This document shows positions 1 through 61,329 of a stretch of DNA of 64,000 bases, in pieces. Position 1 is the stretch's first letter; every line of letters starts with the position of its first letter. The position numbers were made by a program, and so were the translations under genes. The notes under the pieces were generated by a model. That model worked only from the letters and a program-made list of their open reading frames with translations. It had not been told where the DNA came from and did not search any database. Origin of the DNA: Schmidtea polychroa (taxonomy: Eukaryota); NCBI GenBank assembly GCA_044892525.1, contig CM097888.1, positions 33,542,001-33,606,000 of the forward strand. Direction: 5' to 3'.

Positions 1-757
1 CTAGTCTCTTTTTGATTTGAGTTGAAAATAAATCTAATAATTTTAATAAATTGATAAATTATTTTAATAAATGGCTTTAGTAAATTATTTTACCTCCATT
101 CTATTACCTTAAAGGGGTTGTGTCCATTATATAACATGGGGTCTTGAGGGGGAAAGTTATCGTATTTTTATAAGGTTGTTTTATAAATCGGTATGTACAT
201 ACACACATCCACTTATATATACACATACATATACACCCACACATATATACCTATATTGATACCTATATAATTTAAATTAATAATATTGATGTCGTTGTCT
301 ATTTACAAGTTCCTTTACCAAGAAATTTTAAGAATCCCGGCTGAGCCCCCAAATTTGTATGGTGGGTTACTGGTGGTTGAATGTTTGAGTACTGTTACCA
401 GCGTAACCCAGAATACAACGTTATTTTTCCGCTTGGTACCCGTTGAGTGATCAACGTTGGTACTGTACCAAGGGTTGAGTACTCGCAAAAAGTGAGCGCA
501 TCAAAGCACTATAATTGTCGAGCACTCCATGGGTTCACGGACTACCGATAGAAGGTGTGTGTCCGATTTCTCAGGTCCCTTTATCAAAATTGTTTTCCCA
601 ACCTTATGCACAAACTCTCATTTTCCAGGCAATCATAAACTATACTAGTCATTATTTTATCACTACAAAATGTGCATTATTTTAATAAGGAACATATTAT
701 TTGAAGACTACAACAATACACAAATATACTACAAAACACCTAAAACCGAATATAAGT

Positions 758-1216
758 TCAAACAGGCTTATTGGTAGGACTGGCCAATTTCGTCGTGGCT
801 GCTGGTGACGAATTTGCTTGCCGCTCGTATTCGGCCAGCCTAGCTTTCTTCAATTTCTCCCGAATATTTCGGCCAAGCCGTTTCCTTTTGGGCTTATTTT
901 CAGCGGCTGGGGGATATATAGTTGCGAGGTCCACAGCCAGTGGCCGTATTTGTCTGGCTATGGCCCCTTGTACCAACTGCTCGTTTTTCTCAGTTTCGAG
1001 CGCCCGCACCTGTAGCTTCAGGGCGCGGATCTCCATTTGGTCTTGGGCGGCCTGCGTTTGCAGTTGGATGATCTGGGCGGTTTTCTTTTTCATTGCTTCG
1101 GGACTAAACCAGGTCCCTTCGAACTCTCGACATTTTCCCTTCAACTTGTCCACCCGGACCCGGAGTTCGTCGGCTTGGTGCTGGGCCTGCTCCCGATCCT
1201 TCCGGAGATTTTCCAT
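758..1216 (-). CDS. Orphan intronless coiled-coil/basic protein (about 152 aa from ATG 1216), GC-rich, probably mobile-element or virus derived
   Basis: Open frame 1228-758; first ATG at 1216 (MENLRKDREQAQ...); heptad-like coiled coil then basic KPKRKR segment; clearly higher GC than flanking DNA; TATAAG at about 1335 and a TTTAG acceptor-like site immediately upstream on the minus strand. Confidence 0.55.
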   Translation of the reverse strand: MENLRKDREQAQHQADELRVRVDKLKGKCREFEGTWFSPEAMKKKTAQIIQLQTQAAQDQMEIRALKLQVRALETEKNEQLVQGAIARQIRPLAVDLATIYPPAAENKPKRKRLGRNIREKLKKARLAEYERQANSSPAATTKLASPTNKPV

Positions 1217-1505
1217 TAGCTTGTACACTAAAGAGGAAATTCATTAGTTCCCATTACACCCAACAATAAAGTTAGAACGATAAATATTAAAATCAATGAA
1301 TTAATGTTAACATTTCCTACTAGGGCATCCTTATACCACCCCACCTATCAAATGATTTACAAAACACATAAGAATACTTTATTCGAGAATAAACACCCGA
1401 CGTCTATTAATACAAAATTAAAAGATAAAATAAAACACAGCAGATTCCTAATAATTAGTTCATATAAAACAAATTGTCAATGTCGAGCGAATTGTCCTCT
1501 CACAA

Positions 1506-1871
1506 TTACGCGGGGTGCTTGCGGGGCCTTCCCCTCTTTCTCGGGGGTGCCTCGACCTCTTCCAATTCTTCCAGAGGCACTCCCTCCTTTTCCGCCTTGA
1601 TTTGCATCTCGATCTTCTTGAGTCGCATCTGAGCGGCTTCCACCTCCCAGGCTGCTTGATCTCGGGCCTCCTGTAACCGGTTATTCCCCGGCTCCACCTT
1701 CACCCATGCCGGGGCATCTACTTCGGGGCCCGTCCGGATCACTCTATCTGCGCAGTCCAGGTCCCTTCCCTGACCCCACCGACGTATATGGTGCCAGATA
1801 TACCGGGTCCAGAGACGGGTGATCATCTGATGGTCAGTACCCTCGTCACTGCTAGAGCTCGATTGCGACAT
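1506..1871 (-). CDS. Orphan intronless 121-aa protein with C-terminal AT-hook (PRKRGRPRK)
   Basis: ATG at 1871 (MSQSSSSSDEG...), stop 1506; TATTTATAAG about 50 nt upstream and AATAAA downstream on the minus strand; GC-rich; canonical RGRP AT-hook core. Confidence 0.6.
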   Translation of the reverse strand: MSQSSSSSDEGTDHQMITRLWTRYIWHHIRRWGQGRDLDCADRVIRTGPEVDAPAWVKVEPGNNRLQEARDQAAWEVEAAQMRLKKIEMQIKAEKEGVPLEELEEVEAPPRKRGRPRKHPA

Positions 1872-2166
1872 GTCTATAATATGAATATTAAGGCCCGCTC
1901 GTAGCCAACGTGGCTTATAAATAGATGTCACAACAAACATACAGAAAGTTCTTGTTCAAAATCAATAGTACTTAACTACTAAATTTATTATACTACTAAA
2001 TTTATTATACTACTAAATTTATTGTAATTAATATAAATCCTTCTCACATGACCAAATTTTATTTAATCTATTGATATACTTTTTAATTAAATAAAAATTC
2101 ATTAGAGTTAAGTGTTAACATCAGAAAATCCATACCCGATCCGAAAATCTCAAGAATATTGCTTCC

Positions 2167-14682: not shown

Positions 14683-14822
14683 TGTTATGTGTAGAACGCA
14701 GTAACTTTCTGGCCTAACTGACTATTAGAGCAAAAATCAAACTTTTGAGCTGAATTCAGTCGATTTTGAATATTTGTGTAAAAATAAATTGTTTCAGTAG
14801 ATTTGGTATAATGAGATGATTG
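14683..14822. repeat. About 140-bp dispersed repeat, copy 1 (copy 2 at 18056-18196)
   Basis: tgttatgtgtagaacgcagtaactttctggcctaactgactatt...gagatgattgt near-identical in both places. Confidence 0.9.
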
Positions 14823-15928
14823 TAAGAGAGCTATCAGTTACAACGGTTGCAGTTCGAAGATAGCTCATCGTTTATATAATCTGGTTTAATGATAATACAT
14901 CTAATATCTGGATATTTGGTCAGAATTATCAAACTAATCCATAGACATTGATGTGAAAGAAATTAAGAGATTTTATTAAAATAAATACAGTGTTTTAAGT
15001 TGTAAATAATTGCTTGGCGTCTTATCATCCACATCATGTGCAATGAGTCTCACGGTTCTTTAGAGGTTATTTAATAGAGGTTATTTTACGTATATAGTGT
15101 CTTAGAAACATATACCCGATTTAATTATTGCTCAGTGACAAACATTTTGACATAAAACTCCAAGTGCATGAAATTGCATCAGTTGTTAGCTATCATTTAT
15201 TTTTTGGAAAGTGATATTCATTCTTATAAAATTTTAAAATATACCTCGAATTGTAAAGTATGGTATTGCAGTTTTCTTCTGTTTAATTATACATATTCTT
15301 TCAATTATAAAGGGGCAAATGCATTACAGAATGATAGTTGATAAATTTATGAATTTCTGGTTGGAATTTCGACAAAAGATTAACTTCATCACTACTCAGT
15401 ATAAAAAAAGTCTAATCAAGATGATATTTTCCCATTGCATAAATAAATAAAACACCCCCTAACTTGTTTGTTATTTGTTTCCGTACCGAAAACATGATTT
15501 TTATTAAATTTGTATAAAGAATCTTTAACATAAAATCAAAAGTCAATTACAGACAAAAAAATATAAAAATTCTTTCAAATATATTCGTTTTAATTATTTA
15601 TATATTTTATATCAGATTTTACTAAAAAAAATTGAAAATTGATTCAAAATCAAAATTTTTACATAAAATATGAAAAATAAATATCGAAAATTATTATAAT
15701 GTTATTTTTCTTATCTCAAATAGTATTTATAAATTCAATATCTCAGTTTTGTTTTAATTATAAGAAATTGTTATTAACAATATATTTTGACAGCTTTCAT
15801 TTCATGATTAACTAATATATAAAAAATTATAAATATTATAAACAATTTACACATTTTCTATTAATTTAAAAAATTATTTATTAACTTATTTAAACAATTA
15901 AATTTGTTTTAATTTATACTATTTTTAA

Positions 15929-17336: not shown

Positions 17337-17586
17337 CAGGGGTTCTTAACCTTTTCAAACTTATGGACCCCATAAATATATAATTGGTACCGACGGACCC
17401 CTGAAATGTTAAAAAATTAATAAATTGATAGTAAAACACATACATTTTTTAATAATTATTTATAAATCTGTTTATTCAGCTTCAAACAAAAATAATAAAG
17501 GTTTTTTGTAAATAGTGCCGCGGACCACTTGGAACCCGATCGCGGACCCCCCTGGGGGTCCATGGACCCCAGGTTACGAACCCCTG
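17337..17586. mobile_element. hAT-type MITE (250 bp)
   Basis: TIR caggggttc / gaacccctg; flanks TTTAAAAG and TTTTAAAG (7/8); internal ggaccc repeats. Confidence 0.85.
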
Positions 17587-18055: not shown

Positions 18056-18196
18056 TGTTATGTGTAGAACGCAGTAACTTTCTGGCCTAACTGACTATTG
18101 GAGCGAAAATCAAACTTTTGAGCTGAATTCAGTCGATTTTGAAGATTTGTGAAAAAATAAATTGTTTCAGTAGATTTGGTATAATGAGATGATTGT
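18056..18196. repeat. About 140-bp dispersed repeat, copy 2
   Basis: See 14683-14822. Confidence 0.9.
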
Positions 18197-18559
18197 TTAT
18201 TATTGTTGGGCTTTTAAATAAAATTTTATATAAATCATTAATTTCTTTATCAAAAGGTTGATTATAGAAGCTTTTTGAATCATGATAATTTTTTAAAAAG
18301 AGAATATCAGACGAGACATTTGTTTTTTTCTTTTTATTGTCAATTTTTTTACAGGAAAGTTGTTGATTTTTAAAAGTAAAATTTCTAAAAAAATATCTGC
18401 CATAAATAAATTTGTTTCTTATTTGCTAAGACATTTTCTAGTTTTGTCAAAAGGAGTCAAGATTTGTTTGATAAAAATAATTGAGGAAATTTCTTCTTCA
18501 TCGTTGATTATTCAAATTTTGGATTTCTTTGCTGCCAATTGCTGCTTTTTAGAAATCAT

Positions 18560-19271
18560 CTTTTATGCACAAGAGCCGGAGTGGCCCTTGAGATCTCCAA
18601 GTGTGTCGCGAGATTTTTGAAAAATATTAAAATTCCTAGGGTTTTGAAAGAAACAACAAAAGGTCAAGATATTTTTGATCTTATTGATAAGAATCTTCCA
18701 ATTTTTAATTATCACTGGAAAAATTGTGTGAGCATTTGTATTGATGGAGGTCGTCAATGATTAGAACGAATAAAGGATTTGTTTCTTTGGAACAACAGAA
18801 GAACTCGAAAATTTCAGGCGTTTACTGCATGATTCACCGAGAAGCTCTTGTTTCAAAATCATTGCCCGATAATCCCAAATCAGTAATAGATCAAGTAATT
18901 CAGATGGTGAATTTCATCAAAACTCGTCCTCTTCTAACGCCAATTTTTGCTCAACTCTGCGATGCGATAGAATATGACTTCAAATGTCCATTATTCGATA
19001 CTGACGTTCATTTGTTATCAAAAGGAAAGGTTTAAAAGTTGCTGGTTCATCAAAAGATTGAAGTTATATCACTTTTTGAAACCGAAGTAACCTTGAACCT
19101 CGATTTAATTCAATTTGTGCAAAGCAATAGGCCCAAATTTCTTACTAAATAAACAACTTTCTTTAAAAAATATGTTTTGCTCGTGGTCTTAGTTATGGAA
19201 CTTTTGGTGTGTCGCTAAAATTTTAAAGTTTGGCTAGTGTGGCACTACGCAAAAAGGGTTGGGAAACACTG
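18560..19271 (+). mobile_element. hAT (Buster/ZBED5-like) transposase remnant with right TIR
   Basis: Frameshifted motifs TTKGQDIFDLID, CVSICIDG, YCMIHREALVSK, MVNFIKTRPL; ends ggttgggaaacactg at 19271. Confidence 0.85.
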
Positions 19272-19559
19272 ATATAGAGGGTAGAATTCCACTGTTGTGC
19301 AGATATTATTAATGGGAAATAAATTTGAATGTTTTCTAATCATTGGTTGACCTTCTTATATGAACCATAATTGTTCTTACTTTTCTAATAATTGGCAAAA
19401 ACTGGGGTTTAAATTTTTTTCCTTTCAAAATATTTTATGGCTTTCTTCGGCTTTCCATTGTGAAACTAACTTAGATTTCTCTTTTGTTACAGACTTTGCG
19501 TTAACTGTTGAAATATGTTCAGTTCTATTGTTTCAAATTCAAGATCCATCTCAAGTTCC

Positions 19560-19830
19560 GGAAATTCAGTCGTAAGATTTTTCTATTGGACTAGCTGCAA
19601 GCCATCAACCAAACACTTTTATTGCAGAAATCCACTATGTTTTACTTATTTGTGTTGCATAAAGGTTACTGCCTACAATCACATTTTCAAATGCAAGTTT
19701 TGAAGGTTTGTTTTCAAAGTTGAAATTAGTAAAACATCTCTCAGGTCTGTCGTCACAAGAACAACTAACCAACCTGGTTTTCATCAGCGCTAAAATTGAA
19801 TTTTCTACGTTAATATATAAAATTAAATAC
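19560..19830 (+). pseudogene. hAT transposase C-terminal dimerisation-domain remnant (ZMYM1-like)
   Basis: Translates as TITFSNASFEGLFSKLKLVKHLSGLSSQEQLTNLVFIS, matching the hATC pattern (ASxERSFSKLKLIK...QERLxxL). Confidence 0.65.
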
Positions 19831-19869
19831 AAGTAGGGAGAGATAACTTGTTATTTTATCGATGGAGTT

Positions 19870-20170
19870 GTTAAAGAATATTGTAGCGGGGGATACGGAT
19901 TCGTTCTCTCTAGAAATATAAAATTGTAAATTAGAAAAACTTTCCCCTGAAATGGTTATATCTAATTATCCAACTGATCGACTTTATTCTAAAAAACTTG
20001 TCTCTGTTACAGGGAAATTTAAAGATGAGAGTAAGGGTAAAGAATATGATGAGTGGGTGGTCTTAAAAATTAAATGTTACAGTTTGTTAGGTAAATCAAA
20101 ATATCTAAAACCTAAAGGAGTTTATTTACAAAACTAAACCATAAATCTTATAAGGATTGTGTTTAATAGT
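19870..20170 (+). pseudogene. Protein-primed DNA polymerase B (Polinton-type) C-terminal remnant
   Basis: Motif C GDTDS, then SNYP...GKFKDE...KCYS...KGV and frameshifted HKSYKDC; contains a stop and a frameshift. Confidence 0.85.
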
Positions 20171-20188
20171 TCTTGATAATGGAACCAA

Positions 20189-21413
20189 AGTAGGTAGATA
20201 GTAGCCCACGGGAAAAATTACCCCCCCGGGGGGGGGGGGGGGTTTGTTCCCAAATTTTTATTACGCAATTGTTCCCAACTCATTTTTATGCTTTCAGGGA
20301 TTTTTGGTCCAAATTTTTTTATCACACTATAGTGAGGGGGTCTCGATGGTCCTGGGATTTTCAATACAAAAAATTTTTTTCAATACAAAAAGCTGGTCTA
20401 CACTAAAAAAAGCCAAGGATTTTTCAGACTATAGTGCGGGGGTCTCGATGGTCCTGGGATTTTCAATACAAAAAAAAATTTTTCAATACAAAAACGATGG
20501 TCCTGGGATTTTCAATACAAAAAAATTTTTTCTATACAAAATTCCGACTACCACTAAAAAAGCCAAGGATTTTTCAGACTATAGTGAGGTGAGTCTCCTA
20601 GAACCTGAGAAATATGTGGTCTACACTAAAAAAACGTGGTAATTTAAGGTCTCAGGATATTTTCAATACAAAAAGCTGGTCTACACTAAAAAAGCCAAGG
20701 ATTTTTCACACTATAGTGAGGTGAGTCTCCTTGGTCCTGAGAAATAGGTGGTCTACACTAAAAAAACGTGGTAATTTAAGGTCTCAGGATATTTTCAATA
20801 CAAAAAGGTGGTCTTCAATAAAAAAGCATGGATTTTTCTAGGTCAATTCAGGTGAGTCTCCTTGGTCCTGAGAAATAGGTGGTCTACACTAAAAAAACGT
20901 GGTAATTTAAGGTCTCAGGATATTTTCAATACAAAAAGCTGGTCTACACTAAAAAAGCATGGTAATTTAAGGTCTCAGGATATTTTCAATACAAAAATCT
21001 GGTCTACACTAAAAAAGCCAAGGATTTTTCAGACTATAGTGAGGGGGGTCTCCTTGGTCCTGAGAAATAGGTGGTCTACACTAAAAAAACGTGGTAATTT
21101 AAGGTCTCAGGATATTTTCAATACAAAAAGGTGGTCTTCAATAAAAAAGCATGGATTTTTCTAGGTCAATTCAGGTGAGTCTCCTTGGTCCTGAGAAATA
21201 GGTGGTCTACACTAAAAAAACGTGGTAATTTAAGGTCTCAGGATATTTTCAATACAAAAAGCTGGTCTACACTAAAAAAGCATGGTAATTTAAGGTCTCA
21301 GGATATTTTCAATACAAAAATCTGGTCTACACTAAAAAAGCCAAGGATTTTTCAGACTATAGTGAGGGGGGTCTCCTTGGTCCTGAGAAATAGGTGGTCT
21401 ACACTAAAAACGT
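20189..21413 (+). repeat. Left inverted arm built of about 30/60-bp tandem subrepeats
   Basis: Units such as ggtctacactaaaaaa(a)cgtggtaatttaaggtctcaggatattttcaatacaaaaag; 323-bp higher-order repeat (20862 to 21185). Confidence 0.92.
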
Positions 21414-22989
21414 GAAACATCCCCACAAATATTTGTTTTTTTTTTATTAAATTTATGAATTTTATGAAATAATTTTAAATAAATTCAATTAATATACTTC
21501 CATTCTTATCAACCTTCATGTTATCCATGCCACTTCTCATTATTTACCTCCCATGATCCATTAATGGATTATTCTACCAATTATTTTCACCCATTTGAAT
21601 CGAGTAATGAAAAATTTCCTCACTTTAATGAAGATTCTTACCACCTTCATTGTTAATTTTATCAAAGTTTAAAGAATAATTCTCTTTACATTGCTTACCA
21701 CTTTAGAATTTTTATCGAAATTTACGATAATTTGACTAATTCAATGATAAATGAGTTAATTAATATATACTCTGAGTTTATCCGACAAAATATTCTGTCC
21801 CCCTATGGGTATTGCTCACAAGGGTACTACTCACATTCAACATGTCGCAAGGGTATTAGTCGTAAAGGTATTTAATGTTTTTATTTGAATGATTATTTAG
21901 GCAAATTTGTTGTTTAAGGTATTCATAATTTTTAGAGTTGATGGTTTTATTCAAGTAAATTTCTATCTTTTTTGTGAATTTTTATCGTTTTTTTATTGTG
22001 AATTTTTATCGTTTTTTTGTGAATTTCTATTATTTTTGCGGATTTCTATTATTTTCCGTAATTTTTTTGATTATCTGTAATTTTTGTGGATATCTATCAT
22101 TTTTGTGAATTTCCTATTATTTTTGCGATTTGCTATAATTTTTATGAATTTTTATCGTTTTTGTGAATTTCTATCATTTTCATGAATTTTTATCATTTTT
22201 GTGAATTTCTTTGATTTTTGTAAATTTCTATTATTTTTGTGGATTTCATGATTATTGAATGAATATTTAATAATTCAAAGTTAGTTCTAAGATAAATTTA
22301 ATTAATTTCTTGATAATTGGATGTATTTTTAATTTTTAATGAGGTTAATAATTAGAGTTTGTACAATAATCAAGTGGTAGGATAAATTTTTATGAGGATA
22401 TTGAACAATTTTCTAAGAATTTCATGTTGACTGATTAAAAGTTTTAATGGTGATAAATTTAATTGATAAATTTAATTAATTTCTTGATAATTAGTGGTAT
22501 TTTATTGAATAGTTTTTAAATAAAAATTAATTTCAAGTGATAGAATAAATTTTTAATGATAAGTTTGTAATATATTTCACTAAATAATTTTTTCAATAAT
22601 TTTCTAAGAATATTTACTCATTGATGAACTTTAAAAAACATGAGCTAAGAAACTAGTTAACTTTAACAAGGAATTTAAATTTACTTGAAAATGATTGTAG
22701 AATATACTGAAATTTAGTTTGCTGATAGCGCTTGAAAATGATTGGCCGAATCGATGAAGAATTATGATCAATCAATATATATCATCTCCAGTATTTGATG
22801 GTATATATTTGTAGAAAATTTAGTGAATTTTGATCTTTTAGTGGGCTCTTATTATTTGTCTGGTTCTATAACAATTAATTAAAAGTCATATTTTTGAAGT
22901 TCTCTGAGGATTTTAAGAGGATTGATATATATTAAAGGGCTCAAGTGGGTGAAATCTTTAGGGAAAATAAGGGATATAATCGGATAGAT

Positions 22990-23350
22990 GTTTAAAAGGG
23001 TAGAAATATTTGCTGAGAGATCGGATAAGATGGGATATTGTCGGTGAGATTTAATGAGTGATCGGTTAAGATGGGGAAAATATGATCTTTTAAGGGGATA
23101 TAGTCGGTTAGATTTAATGTGAGATGGGTTAAGATGGGAATATATCATTGTAAGGGAGATATAGTCGATTGACTTTAATGAGGAATGGGTTAAGATGGGA
23201 ATATAGTCGGTTAAATTTAATGAGACATGGGTTAAGATGGGAATATATCATTGTAAGGGAAATATAGTCGATTGACTTTAATGAGGAATGGGTTAAGATG
23301 GGAATATAGTCGGTTAAATTTAATGAGACATGGGTTAAGATGGGAATATA
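22990..23350. repeat. Tandem repeat with atgggttaagatgggaatat core (about 104-bp higher-order unit)
   Basis: Core recurs about 8 times. Confidence 0.85.
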
Positions 23351-23799
23351 TGATTTTTTTAATGGTGATGTTGGTAAAATATCATTGTTTTAAGGGAAAT
23401 GTCAATACATTAGTCAGTTATGTATCAATAATAATTATATCGTTTTATTAGATTGTGATTAATTCATTGTATATTTATTTAGATTTATGTTTTAGAACAA
23501 TGTCGATTTACTTGGTTTTGACGATGAAAACTTTACAGATAAATGGGATTGATATCAACTTATTTTTATCTTTATTTAGATGGACAACGACAAAAGTTGA
23601 CCATTTGAAGAAATATATTTTATTGAATGGATAAATTTAATCTTTTAATGGGACCTAGTCAGTTATATTTATTTTAAATTTCGAGTACAGTGATTAACAA
23701 AAAGTTAATTATAACCGGTTTTATCATTAGATTTTATCAATTATTTAGGGTTAATGACCAAATTATTTTACATGTTTTATAATATTCGTGATAATAGGA

Positions 23800-24290
23800 A
23801 TTAAAGTCATTTAAAGGGGATTTTAAGCAATCTTATTAGTCTGAGGTAAATATATAACCTTTTAAGGATATTTATCGATAAAATACTAATCTTTAAAGAT
23901 AGTTATTTCAGGGAAATTTGATGCTTTTTAGATGATTTTAGTGAAATATTTGTAATAATATGGATTAAGGGTAGAAATATAGTCATTTAAGAGATTTTAA
24001 GGAATCTTGTTAGTTTGAGGTGAATATATAGTCTTTTATGAGTACTTATCTTTAAAATATCAATCTTTAAAGATAGTGTTATTTCAATGAAATTTGATGC
24101 TTTTTAGATGATATTTGTAATAATATGAATTAAGGATAGAAATGTAGTCATTTAAGGGGATTTTAAGGAATCTTGTTAGTTTGAGGTGAATATATGATCT
24201 TTAACAAGTACTTATCATTAAAATACCAATCTTTAAATATTGATATATTTAGGGGGAAATGATTCTTTTTAGATGATTTTATTGGAGAAT
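23800..24290. repeat. About 170-bp tandem repeat, about 3 diverged copies
   Basis: agtcattta...ttttaag(c/g)aatctt(a/g)ttagt...gaggt...aatcttta at about 23806, 23980, 24146. Confidence 0.8.
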
Positions 24291-25639
24291 TCACTTGGAT
24301 ATACCAATTATTGTCATTTAAATGAATTTACTGGTTTGTTAGATGTTATCATTAGTTATCTAGTCTCTTTTGGAATTTAATGATAATTATTTTTATTGTA
24401 GATTGCTGACTTTGATAATTGTAATGAATTTATACTGATTTTTTGAATATATTGAGAAATCAGTCAATCAATTTGAGTACATGTATTACTTTTAAAAAAA
24501 TAATTAAATTTAATTTTATTTAAATTAATTTATTCAATCTAAATCAATTATCTACTAGATCTTATTTCAAAATTCTTATTAATTTATTATCTTAGTTGAT
24601 TCATATTAACTTGAATGATCAATGACTAGAATTTAAAGTTCTTTCTTGTCCATTAATTATATTTTTTTAATTTAGTATATTTTGAATAATTTAAATTTTT
24701 ACAATAATTTAATCAATTTTTACCAAGTTATTGATGCCTTGAGTTCAAATATCTTAAAAGTGCCTTGAGTTCAATTAATTTTTCATCTAATTTTTTCAAG
24801 TGATGAGTATTTGCTTTTAAAGATCAATTTGTTAGTACATAGTTGTTGGTTGTAAGTAGTTGGTTGACTTTTTAGATTTTGATAAGAAAATAGTGTATGC
24901 GATGAAGAATAATTTTTTTTATTTAATTGCTATTATTTTTATGTGTTGTTAGTTGATTGTTGGTACTAAGTTGTTGGTTTCTTGTATTTGGTAGTTGGTA
25001 CAGTGTTGTTAATTTCTCGATGGGTTTTGATGGTGGTTGTTAGTACATGGTATCTAGTTGTTAGCTGATTGATAGTAACTACTTAATGGGTAGGTGGGGG
25101 GTTGAGAGTTACCAATACCCCTACGACTAGTACCCTTACGACTAATACCCTTACGACCAGTACCCTTAGGGGGTCAAAACATCCTGTCGGATAAACTCAG
25201 AGTATATATAATAAAACTGATCAACAATAAGTATTTATTGAATGCGATTTTTACATTGCAATAATAAGTTATCATTTAAAAGAAGAATGTTTTGTAAATT
25301 AGAATTCATTAGTCTTTCATTGTAATTAAAATTATTTTGAATTCCACGTGGTGATGAGTTGTGGTTTTTTGATGAAAATCAACATTTTTGTTAAATTTGA
25401 AAAGGTTTTTCTAATGATTGTAATTAAATATATTTTTGAAGATAGATAAAAAATTAATTTAAAAAGCATTTCATAAAATACAATAAAGAATATTTAGTAG
25501 TTAGTTGTAAGTATCTGGTTGTTTGAGAGTTAGTTAGTACGTGGTATCATGGTGTAAGTATTTGTTAGCACCTAGTTAAAAAATAATCAGTAACCGATTG
25601 TTGGTAACTGTTGAATTATTAGTATTTTTATTATTATTA

Positions 25640-25686
<47 letters not shown>

Positions 25687-25999
25687 CATTTAAATTTCCA
25701 TTTAAATTTTCATTATAAATTACATTTCTCAAAAAAGTTGGTGGTTATTCAATCTTTTGATAATAAATTTAAAAATCTTACTTTAATTTACTTATTTAGC
25801 TTTAATTTAAAATTTGAACCATTGGATACTTAATTTTAAATTTTGAACCATTGTTTTCTTTAATTTAAAATTTTTAACTTTAATTTACTTATCCTTAATT
25901 TACCTAATTATTCTTTATTTCTTAATTTTACACCATAATTTACTTAACAACTAAATATAATCCTTATTTTCATATTTAACCAATAATTTCATGTGGTCT

Positions 26000-27130
26000 T
26001 CTGGTTGTAAGTGTTTGGTATCTAGTTGACAGTGCTTAGTACTAGGCAAGTTACTTGGTTGTTAGTACTTGGTTGATAATGCTTAGTGTCTGGTTGTATG
26101 TACTTGGTAGCTAGTTGTTAGTAACTAGTTGTAGGTAATTAATGCTTAGTAGTTGGTAACTGGTTGTTAGTACTTGGTAGGTGGTAGCTAGTTGGTTGTA
26201 GGTACTTAGTAGTTGGTTGATAATGCTTAGTACTTGGTATGTGGTTGTTAGTTGGTTGTAGGTACTTAGTAGTTGGTAGCTAGTTGGTTGCTATCAGGTA
26301 ACTAGTTGTTAGTAACTAGTTGTAGGTATCTGGTTGTTAATACATGTTCGTAATTTACTGGTACTTGGTATCTAGTTGTTAGTTGTTAGCGGGTTGTTAG
26401 TAACTAGGTATCTAGTTGTTAGTACTTGGTTGATAATGCTTAGTACCTGGTTGATGTTGGTTGTTAGTACTTAGTAGTTGGTAGCTAGTTGTTAGTAACT
26501 AGTTGTAAGTACTTGGTATCTGGTTGTTAGTTGTTATCTGGTTGTGAGTAGTTGGTATCAGGTTGTTAGCTGGTTGATAGTACTTGGTATCTGGTAATTA
26601 GTTGTAGGTACTTGGTTGTTTGAGAGTTATTTAGTACGTGTTATCTAGTTGTAGGTACTTGGTATCAGGTAACTGGTTGTTAGTAACTAGTTGTAAGTAC
26701 TTGGTAGTTGGTTGTTAGTTGTTGGTATCAGGTTGTTAGCTGGTTGATAGTACTTGGTATCTGGTAATTGGTTGTAGGTACTTGGTTGTTTGAGAGTTAT
26801 TTAGTACGTGGTATCTAGTTGTAGGTACTTGGTATCAGGTAACTGGTTGTTAGTAACTTGTTGTAAGTACTTGGTAGTTGGTTAATAATGCTTAGTACCT
26901 GGTTGATGGTGGTTGTTAGTACTTGCTAGGTGGTAGCTAGTTGTTAGCTGGTTGTAGCTAGTTAATGGGTAGGTGGTTGTTAGTAGTTGGTATCAGGTAA
27001 CTAGTTGTAGGTATCTAGTTGTAGGTATCTGGTATCAGGTAACTGGTTGTTAGTAACTAGTTGTAGGTATCTGGTTGTTAATACATGTTCATAAGTTACT
27101 GGTTGTTGGTACTAAGTTGTTGGTTTGTTG
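26000..27130. repeat. Cryptically simple G/T-rich satellite (tagttggt / tagtacttggt shuffles)
   Basis: About 1.1 kb composed almost entirely of short G/T-rich words, strong strand bias. Confidence 0.9.
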
Positions 27131-27439
27131 TTGAATTATTATTAAAATTTGTCTTTGAAAAATATTTCATAAAAATTTTCATTAAAAATTATCTTAAAAA
27201 TTTCCATCTAAAATTATCATTGAAAAATATTTCATAAAAATTTCCATTAAAAATTACTTAAAAAATTATTCCATAAAAATTTTCATTAAAAAATTTCAAT
27301 TCTCAAACACCTTCAACTTTTTGTTAATAAATTTTAAAATCTTACTTTAATTTACTTATTTAAAATTTTTTACCATTGATTAGTTAATTTAAAAATTATT
27401 ACTTTAATTTACTTATTTAAAATTTTTTGCCATTGATTA

Positions 27440-28150
27440 CTTAATTTAAAAATTTGGACCTTAATTAACTTTAATTTAATTTTTAGAACCTAAATTTACT
27501 GTAATTCAAAATTTGGATCATAATTTACTGTAATTGAAAAATTTAGAACCATAATTTACTTTTAATTTAATTTTTAGAACCATAATTTACTTTAATTCAA
27601 AAATTTGGACCATAATTTACTTTAATTCAATTTTTAGAACCATTATTTACTGTAATTGAAAAATTTGAGCCATAATTTACTTTAATTTAATTTTTTAGGA
27701 CCATAATTTACTGTAATTTAAAAATTTGAGCCATAATTTACTATAATTTAATTTTTAGAACCATAATTTACTTTAATTTAATTTTTAGAACCATAATTTA
27801 CTTTAATTGAAAAATCTGGACCATTATTTACTTTAATTTAATATTTTAGAACCATAATTTACTTTAATTTAATTTTTAGAACCATTATTTACTGTAATTC
27901 AATTTTTAGAACCATTATTTACTGTAATTGAAAAATTTGAGCCATAATTTACTTTAATTTAATTTTTAGAACCATAATTTACTTTAATTTAAAAATTTGG
28001 ACCATAATTTACTGTAATTTAAAAATTTGAGTCATAAATTACTATAATTTAATTTTTAGAACCATAATTTACTTTAATTTTAAAATTTGGACCATTATTT
28101 ACTTTAATTTCAATTTTTAGAACCATAATTTACTTTAATTGAAAAATTTA
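27440..28150. repeat. About 30-bp minisatellite (accataatttactttaatttaatttttaga), over 20 copies
   Basis: Directly visible tandem array abutting the right arm. Confidence 0.92.
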
Positions 28151-29518
28151 CCACGTTTTTAGTGTAGACCACCTATTTCTCAGGACCAAGGAGACCCCCC
28201 TCACTATAGTCTGAAAAATCCTTGGCTTTTTTAGTGTAGACCAGATTTTTGTATTGAAAATATCCTGAGACCTTAAATTACCATGCTTTTTTAGTGTAGA
28301 CCAGCTTTTTGTATTGAAAATATCCTGAGACCTTAAATTACCACGTTTTTTTAGTGTAGACCACCTATTTCTCAGGACCAAGGAGACTCACCTGAATTGA
28401 CCTAGAAAAATCCATGCTTTTTTATTGAAGACCACCTTTTTGTATTGAAAATATCCTGAGACCTTAAATTACCACGTTTTTTTAGTGTAGACCACCTATT
28501 TCTCAGGACCAAGGAGACTCACCTGAATTGACCTAGAAAAATCCATGCTTTTTTATTGAAGACCACCTTTTTGTATTGAAAATATCCTGAGACCTTAAAT
28601 TACCACGTTTTTTTAGTATAGACCAGATTTTTGTATTGAAAATATCCTGAGACCTTAAATTACCATGCTTTTTTAGTGTAGACCAGCTTTTTGTATTGAA
28701 AATATCCTGAGACCTTAAATTACCACGTTTTTTTAGTGTAGACCACCTATTTCTCAGGACCAAGGAGACTCACCTGAATTGACCTAGAAAAATCCATGCT
28801 TTTTTATTGAAGACCACCTTTTTGTATTGAAAATATCCTGAGACCTTAAATTACCACGTTTTTTTAGTGTAGACCACCTATTTCTCAGGACCAAGGAGAC
28901 TCGCCTCACTATAGTCTGAAAAATCCTTGGCTTTTTTAGTGTAGACCAGCTTTTTGTATTGAAAATATCCTGAGACCTTAAATTACCACGTTTTTTTAGT
29001 GTAGACCACCTATTTCTCAGGACCAAGGAGACTCACCTCACTATAGTCTGAAAAATCCTTGGCTTTTTTAGTGGTAGTCGGATTTTTGTATAGAAAAAAT
29101 TTTATTTGTATTGAAAATCCCAGGACCATCGTTTTTGTATTGAAAAAAATTTTTTTGTATTGAAAATCCCAGGACCATCGTTTTTGTATTGAAAATCCCA
29201 GGACCATCGTTTTTGTATTGAAAAAAATTTTTTTGTATTGAAAATCCCAGGACCATCGTTTTTGTATTGAAAAAATTTTTTTTGTATTGAAAATCCCAGG
29301 ACCATCGTTTTTGTATAGAAAAAATTTTTTTATATTGAAAATCCCAGGACCATAGAGACCCCCTCACTATAGTCTGATAAAAAAAAATTTGTACCTAAAA
29401 TCCCTGAAAGCAAAAAATGTGAGTTGGAACAATTGCATAATAAAAAGTTGGAACAATTTTACCCCCCCCCCGGGGGGGGGGGGGGGTAATTGTTCCAGTG
29501 CGCTACTATCTACCTACT
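28151..29518 (-). repeat. Right inverted arm built of the same subrepeats
   Basis: Reverse complement of the left arm; the innermost about 230 bp give an identical translation (ORF track 21185-21415 vs 28148-28381). Confidence 0.92.
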
Positions 29519-29820
29519 AACCAAGGTTGATATTTCTTTATTCATACGATCAGCAAAATTAGAATACATTGTCGAACTACTTGATAAGACTGTATTGCTA
29601 TATAAATTTTTACAAAAATCTACATCGCATTTCTTAATGCTGTTATAAGTCACATCAAGAATACTATCACTTAAGTCTCTTCCGACTAAATTAATTTTTG
29701 TATTTACTTTTTGTAGGGAATTGAAAATATAAGACAATTAATAGTAGCCAAAATTTATTGTTTATTACATTGATGGTCATGCTTTTATTATAGTCTAATT
29801 GCATTTTTTTTCTTCTTTCT
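29519..29820 (-). pseudogene. Actin-like pseudogene fragment split by the Polinton-type insertion
   Basis: [44 protein letters not shown] matches actin [44 protein letters not shown]; frame continues across the TSD as PLSRTIK (20182-20162) vs actin PSTMKIK; distal part 29700-29820 only weakly similar. Confidence 0.85.
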
Positions 29821-31830: not shown

Positions 31831-33144
31831 TTAATATTTTTTGTTTCATTTTGATAATTCCAACCATTTATGATTCATAGCCAAATCGACTTTTTTTTCT
31901 TTCTAGGCTATATAAACCGGTTTTCAAAACTCGACCACAAATTATTGGTTTCTAAAGAGTATTGTCATGCGTAAAATTGAAAAATGCTTAAAATCATTAG
32001 TGACATCACATTGCAAGAACTATAATAGAGTTAAAATAAAAAAAAATTACATCGCCCTATTGTTAGTCGTTGTGCGAAAGCTAACTATGATTGGTTAGTA
32101 TCTTCCCATTGGCTTTATAACAGAGCTCATTTCCACGTGTTTCCACACTAGTGTTAATCATGCGACGGATTTCAAATGTCAGTGAACTGTCAGGTTTTTT
32201 AACAGTTCGAATTATTGGACAATGTGAGGCAGTGTAGGTCTCCTAGATGTAACTCAAATTAAGGTTGGTTGATTTTTAGATATATTACAATTTATTTAAT
32301 ATATTATGAACTTCATATGTTAAAAGTAATTTTTTTTATCTAACAGTTTTTAATGTGTCATCCAAGAAAATTAAAGATGTTTTAAAAGATTTGATCATTA
32401 TTATAATTGTTAAATATGGGTCAACTGCAATGGTTTTATTTTATCCTCATACCATCATGAAGGTCATGCTTGGATAATTATTTCCCTATGTACAATAATT
32501 ATATAAAAATGTCTAGATCAAGCTTATATCTATGCTGGACGAAAAAGAGGTAAGTCATCAATAGAAACTACGTATAAAAGAAATGTTAGACAGCTAATGT
32601 GTATTATCAAAAACTACATTCGTTTTTCATCACTATACATACAGATTAAATAAAAAGCATACAATACATTTAGAATAATATGATATAGAATAAGTTTTGC
32701 AAGCTTTATGCATAGCAAATTCTGTTACTGAATCGCCCATGTTAAGTATTAAGAGCAAAAATATTATACCTGCATTATCATGTATTATTCTCTGGTTTAA
32801 ATATATACATAGTTACCTAACACGAACTATTGCATTATTTTATTATTATAAGACCTTATTTATGTACGAGTATAGTAACCCTCCATTATTTCAGTAGGTT
32901 TTGGTAGTTAAAGTCAATCCAAGCATTTTAGTCGTTCCTGGTCATTGACATTATTTATATTAAATATAAATAATAACATATTTTAGTAGTATATTTTACA
33001 ATGAGCCTGTAATCTGTTCGAATTTTGACCTGAAGTATTAAATGAATATGATGTGGTGAATGGAATTCGAACCGATTCCAACCGTTTTGTATATAAATGC
33101 CATAAACAGCGGTGATATTGCATTTGAAATTCGTTGTGTACAAA

Positions 33145-41645
<8,501 letters not shown>

Positions 41646-47550: not shown

Positions 47551-50500
47551 TCACTGGCTATCGTCACTGGATGAGCTGGAATCACTACTAGATGATGACG
47601 AAGCTGAACTATTGGATGAGGATGACGAGTCGACAGATGAATTTCTACGCCGTTTCTTTTGATCGGAATTTACAGGATTGTTTGCTGTCTTATTTTCAGA
47701 TACTTTTTGAATTTTCCGATCAATTGACACGCGATTCTCTTCGCTTAATTTCCGCTTCAAATCTTTTTTCTCATTAATATTCTTTTCAGATGATATTTTA
47801 GCATTATGTAATTTTTCTCTAGAATCTTTAGAGGCTTTTTTGTCTGATTCGTTTTCCTGTTTATTGATTGGTTCCGATCGTTCATTGACTCTATATTTAG
47901 AGTCATTTACACGTCGAATTTTATCATTGGTACTATCTCGAGTGTCACTATCACGATAAGATTTCGGTTTCTTTTCATCTCTTTCTTTCGGTTCTCTGTG
48001 TACGTCAGAATCGATTTTAGAAGATCGCGATTCATACTCTCGTCTCGTTGGCTTATCAATATCTTTTTCTTTTTCTCTTGAACTATCTGGATGTTTCTTA
48101 GTCAGTTTATCCTTTTTATCTCTTTCAGATTCATTTTCAATTTCTTTTTCCGATTCTTTTGGACGTCTTTGTATTTCTTTATCTGTTTCTTTCGGAATTT
48201 TTTTCGATTCACAATCGACTTGCTTTACATTTTTCTGTGATTCTTTCACCGTTGCATTTGGCTCTTTTCTTTCTTTGTTCAAGTCTTTTGATTCTTTTCT
48301 GGTATTGATATCATTACTCTTAACATCTTTCTTTGTTTCATTTTTAATTTCTTTAACGTGTTCTTTGAGTTTATTTTTAATGTTATATTCACTTTCCTTA
48401 ATGTCTTTCTTTGTGTCTTTTTCTAAATCGCTAGTTCTTTTTCTTCGTGTGTCTTTTTCTATAAATTTAGGATCCTTTCTTAAATCTTTTTCTATTTCTC
48501 TTTGTTCTCTTCTTCCGTCTTTTTCATCATATTTTTGATCTTTTCTTGTATCTCGAGGAATATCTCGTGTATCTCGAGGAATATCTCGTGTATCTCGAGG
48601 AATATCTCGTGTATCTCGAGGAATATCTCGAGTATCTCGAGGAATATCTCGAGGAATATCTCGAGTATCTCGAGGAATATCTCGAGTATCTCGAGGAATA
48701 TCTCGAGTATCTCGAGGAATATCTCGAGTATCTCGAGGAATATCTCGAGTATCTCGAGGAATATCTCGTGTATCTCGAGGAATATCTCGTGTATCTCGAG
48801 GAACGACTCGTGTATCTCGAGTTATATCTCTAGAATCTCGGGGAATATCTCTTGTATTTCGAATCAAATCTCTTGAATCTTTTTTATCTTTATTTTCTCT
48901 CAATTCCGGCTTTCCTTCTTTAATTTCAATGGCACTTTTCGATCTTTTGTCAATATCTCTAGATTCTTTTCTAGGTTCTCGGTATTCTTTTCGTGATTCT
49001 CTGTTAGTAAATTTTGATTCTTTAGCAGTGTCGCGTTGCCTTCTTGATTCTTTTTCTGAATCATTCAAGAACTCTCTATTATGATCTCTATCTTTGTATG
49101 CATCTTTCCTGCGAGAATCTCTGTGCATTTCATTATTTCTTGCTGAATTATTATAACGATCATTCTCACCGAATCTTCTATGTGCTTCCTCATCTCTTCT
49201 GTTATTATTTTTATCACCACCCATTTTTTCTCTTGATCTATCCCTTATATTTGAACCGTAATCTTTATTCGTGGTTTCATTATGCTTCTCGGATTTTTTA
49301 TTCGAGTGCTTGGACTTTTCAATTTCTTTTTCTTCTTTTTCAACCTTCTCTTTAGAATTCCGTTTCGATGAGATAGATTCACTAATTTGTCCAGATTCTT
49401 TGCTATCTGCATCAGAATCATGCTTCCTCTTCGATTTTTTACTTTTTTTCTTTTGTTTCTTTGATTTTTTCTTATGCTTTCTCTTTTTTTCTTTTTTATT
49501 TTCATCCTCAGAATCTGAAGTATCAATAGACAATGCTTCAATTTCTTTCTTCTTTTTTTTAGATTTCTTAGATTTCTTTTTCTTCGGTTTATCATCATGA
49601 GAATCTTCATTTTTTACATCAGTAATTTTTCTTTTGTATTTTGCCTTGGATGATTTTTCAAAAAAATTATCAGTATCCCTGAAATGAATTCCGAATATAA
49701 ATATAACAAGACATTAAAAAAATATGTTCGATTAATAAACACCAATCTAATCGATTATTTGCACCACTCTGTGACATAAACTAATAGAATTGTGCAACTC
49801 CTAGTACGTAACAAATGATTTCTGTTCATTCAAATATTACAGCTCCGTTATGTCAATCCGTTGATTTTTTTATTGCAGTAAACATTTTTAAAACATAAAA
49901 TGAATATTCAAAACTATTCGTGCCTATTGAATTTTGTGATTAAAAAATATATTTTAAATTATTTTTTTTATTAGGATGGTTAATAAATAATGAATATAAC
50001 TAAATAGGGGATATAAATTTTATGTAAGATTTTATAGTTTCAATTGTAGTATTAGACCAGTGGTGGCCAACCCAAATCAATCGAAGGGCCAAATTTCCGG
50101 AAAAATACTATCACGGGCCACAATAAATTCATTTAAATAAATGTAACTCGTTTTTACGATTCAAGTAAACTTAGAATCAATTTTTTAAATTAAAAACATG
50201 CTTAATTCGAATATGAATTCTAAAAAAAAATTATTGATTTGATGTTTAAAATTGTGTCCGGGCCACATCAAAACGCTTCGCGGGCCACCGGTGGGCCATG
50301 GCTGTATTAGAAGATATTTGATTTTAAAATGATATTAAAATACAACATGAAAGAGACAAATGCATAGATGCAGAAGAATGATGTAATATTACAATTTTTT
50401 CTATTTACATTATAAGAAAATAGGTTTTCTTGTATTGTTTCGTTGAATGATAAATAAAAAAAAGTTAAGGTATTAAATTTCTATCAAAAAGTTTAGAAAA

Positions 50501-52456
50501 AATGCATTGGCTGCGCTGGTGCTGCAATATGTGATCCAGTTTTATAACGATATTTGCTACTGTATCGGGGGGTCATTTGCAATTAAAATAATTTAAATGG
50601 CTTGGTTTATTTAATATTCATCAATAAATTATAATTTATAGCTGTAGAATTAATGATAACCAAATACGTAATGTAACATCAACGCGTAATTTATGGAACA
50701 TTTAATTTCACTCTATCAATGCCGATTTTCGTAAGTATGGATATAATTTTGAAATTCATGTTTTAATAATAATATATTTACTTTTCAATGACTAAATATT
50801 GTGTTTTATTTCTATTTAAATATTATTTTTGGATAAACTATTTACACAAAACTTTTTAATTGAATATTCGGTTTCCCTCACAGATTTGTGTATAGAAGAA
50901 ATATAAATATTCACAAAATTTTAATGTCAATTTTGCACTGATGGAGTTTTATTATTAAAAGGTATCTATAATAAAATTAGTATACTAAATGAATTCACAG
51001 TCCCTTTGAAGCTGTTCTATTTTTTTAATAATAGCAGGAAAAACACTCGTTTATTTAGCATTATTAGAGAATCATCAGCATTGAAAAGTGTATTAAATGT
51101 TGAGACTTTTTGGGTGTTCAATATAGATGTTTTCCTTCTTATATGTCCGTGTTATTTAATTTTAATCTTTCAGTTATAAATGTACTTTTATAATGTAATT
51201 AAGCATAGATATTGATTTTCCCCAAAAAACATAAGGTGCTGTGATATTAGATTTATCAAATTTGTATTTTTCAATAATGTTAGCAGAAACAAAATGAATA
51301 GCAATAAAGGAAAACCATTAAACGTAAAAAATATCTACCAAATAGAGCAGCATCAAGTGTTAAAGAACCTTTGCCAATCCCGAGTTGTTAGAACAGACAA
51401 AATTAATTATTTCTAGAAAATATCGATTTTATTAAAAGTTAAGCGAAAAATGAACAAAACATCAGCGTATTTTATCTACAGATAAAGACCGGGATAGAAT
51501 CAGAATGTTTAATGCGAAATCATAAAGGTGCGTTTAATGAACTCCGAAATGAAAAGTCAGATTATTTAAATCAAATGGTATAATACTTAACTATGTGATA
51601 ATTCTTCAGTGTTGTTATTGATTTTAAAGCATTTCAAAACTCTAATTAATTAATAACATTAATTGTTAAATGAATTTAATAATTTTAAATTGCCTTCATC
51701 TTCAGTTCTTTTCAGACTGTAAATCAATATATTTGAGAAGCATGAAATGAATCTGTCAAGGTAAGTAAAACTGTCCTAATACGGCAATGGGAGTACATCA
51801 ATAAAAAAAATCTAATATAAAATAGTATAACAGCAAAGAGTCTATAATAAAATCACATAAAATTATTTAACAAGATTCAGAATTTTAAATCAATGATAAA
51901 TAAAATTCAAAAATAATAAAATATCGTAAAATTAAGAAAAATATTAATTCAACTTACTTCTCGTCATCACTTTTAATATTGAGAGCATTTTTAAATTTTT
52001 GGTCCTTTAAATTATTTGCAATAGCTATTTCATGGGTTCCTTTTCCGACAATCCTACCACCCATATCCTTCTCGAAATCATCAATCGTAACATCTGTATC
52101 TATTTTCATTTGTTCATTATGCTTATCGATAAGACTTTGACGGTAAACATTAACTTTTGCTTCGATGTCTTCAGCAGAGTATCTGAATGGAAATATAATT
52201 TTGAAATAATTAATAACTTTTTCATATACCCTTGTTTTTCCATTAAATCTTCTAATTCGACGCACTTTAATTCTATTTTTCTTTTCCTCTCATGCTCCAG
52301 AATATCTTTGTTAGGCTTTTTAAAGATAGACTGACCTTTAGTATCGGGTGGCTTATATTCTTCTTGCTTTCTAACAGGTGCATGAGCTAGATTTCTTTGA
52401 ATATAACCATTCGTACCACTTCCTCTCGGAGTAGTTAATCCAATTCCATTATACAT
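47551..52456 (-). CDS. CWC21: CWC21/SRRM2-family pre-mRNA splicing factor with long charged low-complexity tail, about 859 aa, 3 exons
   Basis: MYNGIGLTTPRGSGTNGYIQRNL and HERKRKIELKC...YSAEDIEAKV...YR cwf21 domain; exons 52456-52230, 52182-51958, 49678-47551 with matching phases and GT-AG sites. Confidence 0.9.
48548..48860 (-). repeat. Coding 21-nt tandem repeat, (RDTRDIP)n
   Basis: 11 perfect peptide units, one 12-nt partial unit and 3 degenerate units inside the CWC21 terminal exon. Confidence 0.95.
50058..50304. mobile_element. hAT-type MITE (247 bp) in CWC21 intron 2
   Basis: TIR cagtggtggcc / ggccatggctg; flanks TATTAGAC and TATTAGAA (7/8). Confidence 0.8.
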
Positions 52457-52924
52457 GTTTATCTAAATCTAATAAATTGGATTAAATATAAATTGATAAT
52501 AATTTTATTTTAAAGTTATTTCTATTCAATAAGCAAGATAAAACTAAATATGAAATATAACTATATATTATGCTATTTAAGAGTAGATTTTAAAATATCA
52601 GATTATTAAATCTGTTATTGCTATTTAGAAAAATTAATTGTAATTTTAAATGTCAATATAACACTCACAATTATTAAAATGGAACAAATAATTTTAAAAT
52701 GTAATTTATTTAAACAATTTGCATTCGGTGATTAAATTGATTGAATTGTCGAGAATGTATAATTTCGAAGTTTAAATTTATTAACTTTAAATTTTAAATA
52801 TCATGTCAATTTTTAAGCAAAAATATGTTAGGAAAATATGATTTTCAAAAAAATTTTAGCTAAAATATTAATTAAAACTTACGATGAATAAAAATCATTC
52901 TTAGAAAATATTAATTTTAAAAAA

Positions 52925-54600: not shown

Positions 54601-54619
54601 ATAATACAACCCTTTTCAT

Positions 54620-55230: not shown

Positions 55231-55289
55231 ACCATTTTATATATTATAAAAATAGTATATATATATACCACTTTATGGTATGTATTATT

Positions 55290-55829: not shown

Positions 55830-55843
55830 TTTTTAATAAAATT

Positions 55844-61323: not shown

Positions 61324-61329
61324 AATAAG

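What the first reader, a model, noticed from the sequence alone, without database searches (positions are those of the whole stretch)
20189..29518. 9.3-kb gene-less Polinton-type element made almost entirely of satellites
AGTAG...CTACT ends and a 6-bp TSD are established Polinton/Maverick integrase signatures, but the interior has no recognisable gene. It holds kilobase foldback arms of tandem subrepeats plus at least four other arrays. The clean TSD implies it integrated as a unit, so it may be a parasite of Polintons that disperses satellite DNA.
Basis: partly seen in the sequence, partly recalled or inferred. Interest (0 to 1): 0.75.

Follow-up and report, generated by a model that had tools for sequence, protein, structure and literature searches.

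The report
Gene-less foldback transposon with Polinton-type ends
A 9.3-kb gene-less DNA element, about 60% short tandem repeats, was inserted as one unit into an invertebrate genome, most likely by the integrase of a virus-like Polinton transposon; whether it is a multi-copy family that spreads satellites is untested.

Summary
The element is real: 20189-29518, identical terminal 16 bp (AGTAGGTAGATAGTAG), a perfect 6-bp duplication AACCAA (chance about 1e-3), and 1.2/1.4-kb inverted arms (1176 of 1219 aligned bases identical) whose monomer order differs, which argues against an assembly mirror. It sits at the end of an actin pseudogene fragment whose frame continues across the site. No gene remnant was found inside (Pfam, PHROGs, polB and integrase profiles). 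'Almost entirely satellites' is overstated: tandem arrays cover 58% (67% permissive), all are short, and about 2.5 kb is non-repetitive. Internal duplicates are about 30% diverged while the arms differ by 1-7%, so the element probably moved after it was already gene-less. AG..CT ends with a 6-bp duplication fit Polintons best, and a Polinton-like provirus and a pPolB fragment lie in the same window. But the end is AGTAGG, not canonical (AGT)2, and that neighbour has different ends, so no helper is identified. Copy number and satellite dispersal could not be tested. Verdict: probable non-autonomous Polinton-type foldback element, a new variant of known kinds. Interest 0.4.

The parts
20183..20188 (.). 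left 6-bp target-site duplication AACCAA
20189..21414 (+). left terminal inverted arm (1226 bp): terminal 16-mer, weak subterminal C/G palindrome, 49-bp subrepeats, 13 monomers of 60/71-73 bp in a 323-bp higher-order repeat
20210..20277 (+). left subterminal motif set: one inverted and two direct TTGTTCC(C)A-type motifs around a C7G15 run; hairpin not above shuffles (z -0.2)
21415..21757 (.). non-tandem AT-rich segment with GC skew (-0.38) opposite to most of the interior
21763..21872 (+). left arm of an older internal inverted pair: 25-bp identical core on a TA run, four RRGGTAYT-type motifs at about 15-bp spacing (possible end of a nested TA-target transposon)
21958..22247 (.). 19-bp array, 15 copies
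23032..23355 (.). 42/61-63/103-bp array
23798..24282 (.). 166-bp array, 2.8 copies
24807..25110 (+). GT-rich segment homologous (68%) to part of the large GT array
   Evidence: 0 of 200 null alignments reach the score
25115..25209 (-). right arm of the internal inverted pair, including a 15-bp array
25491..25960 (+). shrunken duplicate (70%) of 27020-27500: GT piece, ATT microsatellite, 12-bp and 29-bp repeats
26001..27133 (+). GT-rich array with 7-bp periodicity and a 170-bp higher-order unit; loosely resembles the terminal 14-16-mer
27158..27298 (.). 13-bp array, 11 copies
27348..28149 (.). 30-bp array, 27 copies
28152..29518 (-). right terminal inverted arm (1367 bp): 14 monomers in an order different from the left arm, expanded 29/49-bp subrepeats, strong subterminal hairpin (-25 kcal/mol, z -4.6, 0 of 200 shuffles)
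29519..29524 (.). right 6-bp target-site duplication AACCAA
29519..29662 (-). flank: actin pseudogene fragment (actin residues 274-320) running up to the insertion site
19877..20146 (+). flank: broken C-terminal fragment of a protein-primed PolB, outside the element

Best explanation
A non-autonomous, foldback-shaped derivative or dependant of a Polinton/Maverick. It keeps only the cis ends: AG..CT termini with short AGTAG iterations, a subterminal palindrome with three copies of a TTGTTCC-type motif, and kilobase inverted arms. Shown: it entered this site as one unit with a 6-bp duplication, and it encodes nothing detectable. Inferred: a retrovirus-type Polinton integrase supplied in trans made the 6-bp staggered cut. 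Also inferred: the interior was already gene-less filler at that time, because its internal duplicates are about 30% diverged while the arms differ by 1-7% and the TSD is intact. The filler grew by local duplication and slippage of its own motifs, and perhaps one nested TA-flanked insertion. The inner arms are kept alike by pairing and conversion between the arms (or by assembly polishing). Whether it is also copied by a helper pPolB, as opposed to only cut and pasted, is unknown.
For: Exact TSD at the unique boundary, P about 1e-3. Arms 96.5% identical, with different monomer order. Actin pseudogene ends at the TSD and stays in frame across the site, reading L-V-P against actin L320-A321-P322. 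Published Polinton features are a 6-bp TSD, AG..CT end motifs and TIRs of 46-1447 bp (PMC8097293 section 7; PMC10045372 passages). The other 6-bp-TSD group named, IS3EU/GingerRoot, ends in TA..TA or TG..CA, which does not fit. Polintons occur in this genome: pPolB fragment, E 2.8e-18, and an element with A32 ATPase, rve integrase and double-jelly-roll capsid ORFs at 53183-59880. Polintons that lack polB yet apparently stay mobile are reported (10.1101/2025.02.07.637071 passages). Internal duplicates are 68-70% identical, against 0.8-6.6% substitutions between the arms.
Against: The end is AGTAGG, not (AGT)2 or (AG)3, and the full-text search for AGTAG with Polinton/Maverick showed 0 occurrences of AGTAG in the 25 listed of 293 papers. 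No Polinton gene remnant was found inside, so descent from a Polinton is not shown. The Polinton-like neighbour has different, TA-flanked ends and no 6-bp TSD, so it is not the helper. Only one copy is seen: the 16-mer has 2 exact matches in 64 kb, the two ends themselves. Library scans have limited sensitivity: Pfam and PHROGs both missed the real pPolB fragment in the flank. The actin continuation left of the TSD gave no hit on its own.
Confidence: 0.6

Rival explanations
1. A non-autonomous foldback (FB/Tetris/Galileo-like) cut-and-paste transposon of another or unclassified DDE group that also leaves 6-bp duplications. The subrepeats in the arms are multiplied transposase-binding sites.
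For: Modular arms (unique outer domain plus tandem domain derived from it, z 23.5) parallel Tetris, whose repeats are thought to derive from its flanking domain (PMC4079207 passages). There is no Polinton coding trace, and the end motif is non-canonical.
Against: Tetris has 8-10-bp TSDs, and IS3EU/GingerRoot have TA..TA or TG..CA ends. No boundary gives a 7-11-bp TSD here. AG..CT plus 6 bp is the published Polinton combination.
Confidence: 0.25
2. A once-complete Polinton that lost its genes and filled with repeats in place after insertion; a one-off fossil rather than a mobile gene-less family.
For: Only one copy is seen. Most vertebrate Mavericks are degraded fossils (PMC8097293 passages). 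Conversion between the arms could hide their true age.
Against: No gene trace was found even with lineage-matched polB and integrase profiles that detect their controls at E<1e-30. Internal duplicates (about 30% diverged) look older than the arms (1-7%), and the TSD is intact.
Confidence: 0.1
3. An assembly artefact: collapsed or mirrored repeats joined by the assembler.
For: The scaffold has six N gaps elsewhere. On the + strand both ends read a C run followed by G15, whereas a true inverted repeat would mirror the run lengths, so the homopolymer lengths are unreliable. The inner arms are 99% identical, which polishing could cause.
Against: Perfect TSD, flanking actin frame preserved, arms differing in monomer order and at 43 positions, and no N inside the element.
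Confidence: 0.05

Closest known systems
Polinton/Maverick elements (Polintoviruses)
   Same: 6-bp TSD, AG..CT ends, TIR length within the published 46-1447 bp (PMC8097293; PMC10748475 passages give 100-1500 bp TIRs and 5-8-bp TSDs)
   Different: No pPolB, integrase, ATPase, protease or capsid gene; 9.3 kb against 12.7-24.6 kb; end AGTAGG rather than (AGT)2; TIRs made of tandem monomers
polB-lacking, apparently still mobile polintons of butterflies (10.1101/2025.02.07.637071, passages); non-autonomous Polintons in Repbase (recalled from Kapitonov and Jurka 2006, which was not held)
   Same: Polinton ends retained while dependent on a helper
   Different: The butterfly elements keep most virion genes and carry TE cargo; this one has no coding sequence at all
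Foldback transposons Tetris / Galileo / FB (PMC4079207, passages)
   Same: Non-coding element with long modular TIRs containing tandem repeats that vary in copy number; proposed source of satellites
   Different: Tetris TSD is 8-10 bp and it is assigned to Mutator; it has one repeat family, whereas here at least eight further arrays lie between the arms; satellite expansion is shown for Tetris but not here
Satellite-carrying non-autonomous Helitrons/Helentrons and MITEs such as miDNA4 (PMC12628747, passages; PMC8268682, passages)
   Same: Conserved ends around internal tandem arrays
   Different: Different ends and mobilisation. That review's main text has 0 mentions of Polinton/Maverick; the oyster satellitome lists one satellite (CgiSat52) with Polinton similarity

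Membership tests
Polinton/Maverick | 6-bp target-site duplication | tested here: met
   AACCAA on both sides; the only duplication longer than 4 bp among the shifts tested
Polinton/Maverick | Terminal inverted repeats of about 50-1500 bp | tested here: met
   1226/1367 bp, 96.5% identical
Polinton/Maverick | End motif (AGT)2, (AG)3 or a similar short reiteration | tested here: inconclusive
   AGTAGG: AG..CT and 5 of 6 bases of (AGT)2; not an exact published motif
Polinton/Maverick | Protein-primed PolB gene | tested here: not met
   Profile of 6 related pPolBs hits only the flank fragment; tblastn likewise
Polinton/Maverick | Retrovirus-like integrase gene | tested here: not met
   Profile of 120 related integrases: best inside E=6.1, control 9e-80
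Polinton/Maverick | Virion module (ATPase, MCP, mCP, protease) | tested here: not met
   No Pfam/PHROGs hit; neighbour's ATPase and capsid ORFs give only E>=0.38; mCP and protease had no dedicated profile
Non-autonomous Polinton | Ends shared with an autonomous Polinton of the same genome | not testable with these tools
   No host genome collection; the one Polinton-like neighbour has different ends
Non-autonomous Polinton | Multiple copies with distinct 6-bp TSDs | not testable with these tools
   One copy in 64 kb; 0 hits in prokaryotic genome contigs, as expected
Foldback elements (Tetris/FB, Mutator-type) | Long modular TIRs with internal tandem repeats, no ORF | tested here: met
Foldback elements (Tetris/FB, Mutator-type) | 8-10-bp TSD | tested here: not met
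   No 7-11-bp duplication at any tested boundary
IS3EU/GingerRoot | 6-bp TSD with TA..TA (or TG..CA) termini | tested here: not met
   TSD fits, but the termini are AG..CT
TE-dispersed satellite DNA | Same monomers occur in long arrays or at many loci outside the element | not testable with these tools
   None elsewhere in the window apart from ATT and short AT-rich matches; genome-wide data unavailable

The most novel reading that the evidence does not exclude
A multi-copy 'gutless' Polinton: a helper-dependent satellite of a polintovirus that keeps only the replication/integration ends and uses self-amplified tandem repeats as stuffer, possibly to stay at a packageable size. Its largest array would be an amplified copy of its own terminal motif, and the family would seed new satellite DNAs around the genome.
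Probability: 0.12. Interest if true: 0.75.

Novelty: new variant of a known kind. Interest (0 to 1): 0.4.

Why it matters
Polinton transposition has not been shown experimentally (own knowledge). A fully non-coding element that moved with Polinton-type ends would show that the ends alone suffice in cis. It also points to candidate signals (terminal AGTAG iterations, subterminal hairpin, three TTGTTCC-type motifs per end) and gives a natural minimal substrate. If the family is abundant, it would add Polintons to the short list of element classes that breed and carry tandem repeats. As a single copy without a known helper it is a well-supported curiosity, not a new mechanism.

Tried and rejected
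Gene remnants inside the element: Pfam, PHROGs, Rfam, polB and integrase profiles, and tblastn with the neighbour's ORFs were all negative. Stop-codon counts in five non-tandem segments do not differ from shuffles (p 0.2-0.99); this test is weak, because the three pseudogene controls reached only p 0.04-0.39. The idea that the element interrupts a polB gene was rejected: the pPolB fragment ends about 20-40 bp left of the TSD and the right flank is actin on the other strand. The neighbouring Polinton-like element as helper was rejected because its ends differ. The idea that 21415-21745 and 25222-25560 are old inverted copies was rejected (155 of 200 nulls score as well), and so was a same-strand match (59 of 200). 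22256-22700 against the reverse of 27060-27500 was borderline (1 of 200) and is not claimed. Terminal 14-16-mer as the origin of the GT array is only suggestive: 4 sites at <=3 mismatches inside the array and none elsewhere in the window, p 0.003-0.03 against order-3 Markov arrays at 3-4 mismatches, but p 0.04-0.11 against dinucleotide permutations of the motif, and 3.3% of outside 16-mers fit the array model as well. The left-flank actin continuation alone gave no hit. The prokaryotic genome scan with an arm 32-mer gave 0 hits. The host could not be resolved beyond an AT-rich invertebrate: best HPD-exon hits were a bivalve, an annelid and a scallop at 74-78% among 113 hits. Literature: nine searches (listings only, plus the passages cited) found no description of a gene-less, repeat-filled Polinton. 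Repbase reports, subscription papers and supplements were not seen and could contain one. Viral and metagenome contig collections stayed unchecked.
Full report
Observation. The element runs from 20189 to 29518. Both ends read AGTAGGTAGATAGTAG inward and are flanked by AACCAA at 20183-20188 and 29519-29524. Among boundary shifts of -3 to +3 and duplication lengths 2-11, only this boundary gives more than 4 bp; the chance that two flank 6-mers match is 7.5e-4 by composition and 9.7e-4 empirically. The arms (20189-21414 and 28152-29518) align with 1176 matches and 43 mismatches. They consist of an outer domain and a tandem domain of 60- and 71-73-bp monomers, 13 on the left and 14 on the right, in different order but ending in the same truncated monomer. 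A mirror made by an assembler would be unlikely to differ in this way. There are no Ns inside, although the window has six gaps elsewhere.

Insertion site. The right flank is a decayed actin fragment on the minus strand, matching actin residues 274-320 (E about 1e-13) and ending exactly at the duplication. Element plus one duplication is 9336 bp, a multiple of three, and the same frame resumes on the left as L-V-P where the solved actins read L-A-P. The left remainder is too short to hit on its own, so this is supporting, not independent, proof. Further left, 19877-20146 is a broken C-terminal piece of a protein-primed PolB (6 hits, best E 2.8e-18, 51-59% identity). It lies outside the element. 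The host is an AT-rich invertebrate; an HPD exon has its best hits in a bivalve, an annelid and a scallop at 74-78%, which does not resolve the lineage.

Interior. TRF covers 58% of the element and 50% of the part between the arms, against 4% outside; permissive settings give 67% (12% outside). With arms and internal duplicates counted the figure is 73%, leaving 2496 bp. 'Almost entirely satellites' is therefore too strong. The arrays are minisatellite-sized: 19 bp x15, 42/63/103 bp, 166 bp x2.8, 15 bp x3.5, ATT, a 1.1-kb GT-rich array with 7-bp periodicity, 13 bp x11 and 30 bp x27. The interior has a history of internal duplication: 25491-25960 is a 70% copy of 27020-27500, and 24807-25110 a 68% copy of part of the GT array (0 of 200 nulls each). 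An older inverted pair at about 21763-21872 and 25115-25209 (74% over 111 bp, a 25-bp identical core on TA runs, four 15-bp-spaced motifs per side) looks like the ends of a nested TA-target transposon. However, DNA just inside its right end is homologous to the array outside it, so its history is unresolved. Most of 21900-27130 is G-skewed, including the non-tandem parts (+0.29 to +0.43, against a background mean of 0.03, sd 0.11, maximum 0.28 in 99 windows); this is unexplained.

No gene. Six-frame scans gave no Pfam family at cut-off in 18 segments (two sub-threshold hits), nothing in PHROGs for 18 interior segments and nothing in Rfam. Both protein libraries missed the real pPolB fragment in the flank, so I added lineage-matched profiles. 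A pPolB profile (6 sequences) finds only the flank fragment (E 4e-31), and an integrase profile (120 sequences) finds the neighbouring element at 9e-80 but nothing inside better than E 6.1.

Ends. Each end has, 21 bp in, a palindrome centred on a C/G run, and three copies (one inverted, two direct) of a TTGTTCC-type motif. All three left copies are of a CCC/GGG type and all three right copies of a CC/GG type. The right hairpin folds well (-25 kcal/mol, z -4.6, 0 of 200 shuffles); the left does not exceed shuffles. Divergence between the arms falls inward: 13 of 196 sites in the outer 200 bp, 7 of 255 next, and 6 of 691 in the inner array (Fisher p 1.6e-5 for outer against inner). This could reflect inherited left/right asymmetry, conversion between the inner arms, or polishing. 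The terminal 14-16-mer resembles the GT array, but the controls disagree (p 0.003-0.11), so this is only a lead.

Mechanism. Shown: insertion as one unit with a 6-bp duplication and no detectable coding capacity. Inferred: a Polinton integrase acting in trans. A 6-bp TSD is the characteristic Polinton length, while the other 6-bp group described there, IS3EU/GingerRoot, ends in TA or TG (PMC10045372 passages). Vertebrate Mavericks end in (AGT)2, (AG)3 or (AC)3A, with TIRs of 46-1447 bp (PMC8097293 section 7). This element fits in TSD, AG..CT ends and TIR length, but its AGTAGG end is one base off (AGT)2. The internal duplicates are far more diverged than the arms and the TSD is intact, so the element most likely moved after it had become gene-less; conversion between the arms could weaken this argument. 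A second, Polinton-like element at 53183-59880 (A32 ATPase, rve integrase interrupted by a MITE, PLA2-like ORF, double-jelly-roll capsid ORF) shows that such proviruses exist in this genome, but its ends differ and are TA-flanked, so it is not the helper.

Comparison. It works like a non-autonomous TIR element and is shaped like the foldback element Tetris, whose TIR repeats seeded a satellite but which has 8-10-bp TSDs (PMC4079207 passages). Satellite arrays inside Helitrons and MITEs are well known (PMC12628747 passages; PMC8268682 passages). Polintons lacking polB that appear still mobile are reported (10.1101/2025.02.07.637071 passages), a Drosophila survey tabulates two non-autonomous Maverick families without structural detail in the passages seen (PMC12694884), and non-autonomous Polintons in Repbase are recalled from a paper that was not held. 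Passages of PMC10748475, PMC5499653 and PMC12910113 added only general features. Nine searches found no description of a wholly non-coding, multi-array Polinton; Repbase and subscription papers were not searchable. It fails membership as an autonomous Polinton, and membership as a non-autonomous one needs a helper that these tools cannot find.

Verdict. A real, well-delimited gene-less foldback element, probably Polinton-dependent (0.6); other foldback transposon 0.25, fossil decayed in place 0.1, artefact 0.05. The satellite-dispersal claim is untested. New variant of a known kind; interest 0.4.

Noticed in passing
window 53183-59880: Polinton-like element of about 6.7 kb with ~60-bp TIRs (CACTACTATC..GATAGTAGTG) flanked by TATA rather than a 6-bp TSD. 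It has A32 ATPase, rve integrase, PLA2-like, double-jelly-roll capsid and C2H2 ORFs, and no polB hit. TA-flanked CACTA-like ends on Polinton genes are unusual.
   Followed up: partly
window 56920-57137 (approx.): hAT-type MITE of about 220 bp with an apparent 8-bp duplication interrupting the integrase ORF of that element; hAT label recalled from end sequence.
   Followed up: partly
window 19877-20188 and 29519-29662: The flank is a mosaic: a pPolB fragment abuts an actin pseudogene fragment on the opposite strand within about 20-40 bp, preceded by hAT-transposase-like remains at about 18500-19840 (hAT label recalled; Pfam gave no hit).
   Followed up: partly
window 21763-25209: Possible nested 3.4-kb TA-flanked TIR element with 15-bp subterminal repeats inside the element.
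   Followed up: partly
window 21900-27130: Strong one-sided G (and T) skew, including non-tandem segments; 21411-21757 has the opposite skew. Unexplained.
   Followed up: partly
window 17338-17586 (approx.): Short MITE-like element with CAGGGGTT..AACCCCTG ends.
   Followed up: no
window 14683-14823 and 18056-18196: 141-bp direct duplicate at 97% identity; other small dispersed repeats at 32515/33772, 11142/38211 and 16586/36325.
   Followed up: no
window 33139-39604, 47554-52462, 60364-64000: Host HPD (4-hydroxyphenylpyruvate dioxygenase) exons, a cwf21-domain SRRM2-like gene with a 21-bp coding repeat, and an LTR-retrotransposon gag-pol (RT, RNase H, integrase; Gypsy-type by recall).
   Followed up: partly
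window 756-2023: GC-rich stretch with two minus-strand ORFs (160 and 149 aa, no Pfam family at cut-off) followed by a 17-bp ACTACT-containing triple repeat; unidentified.
   Followed up: no
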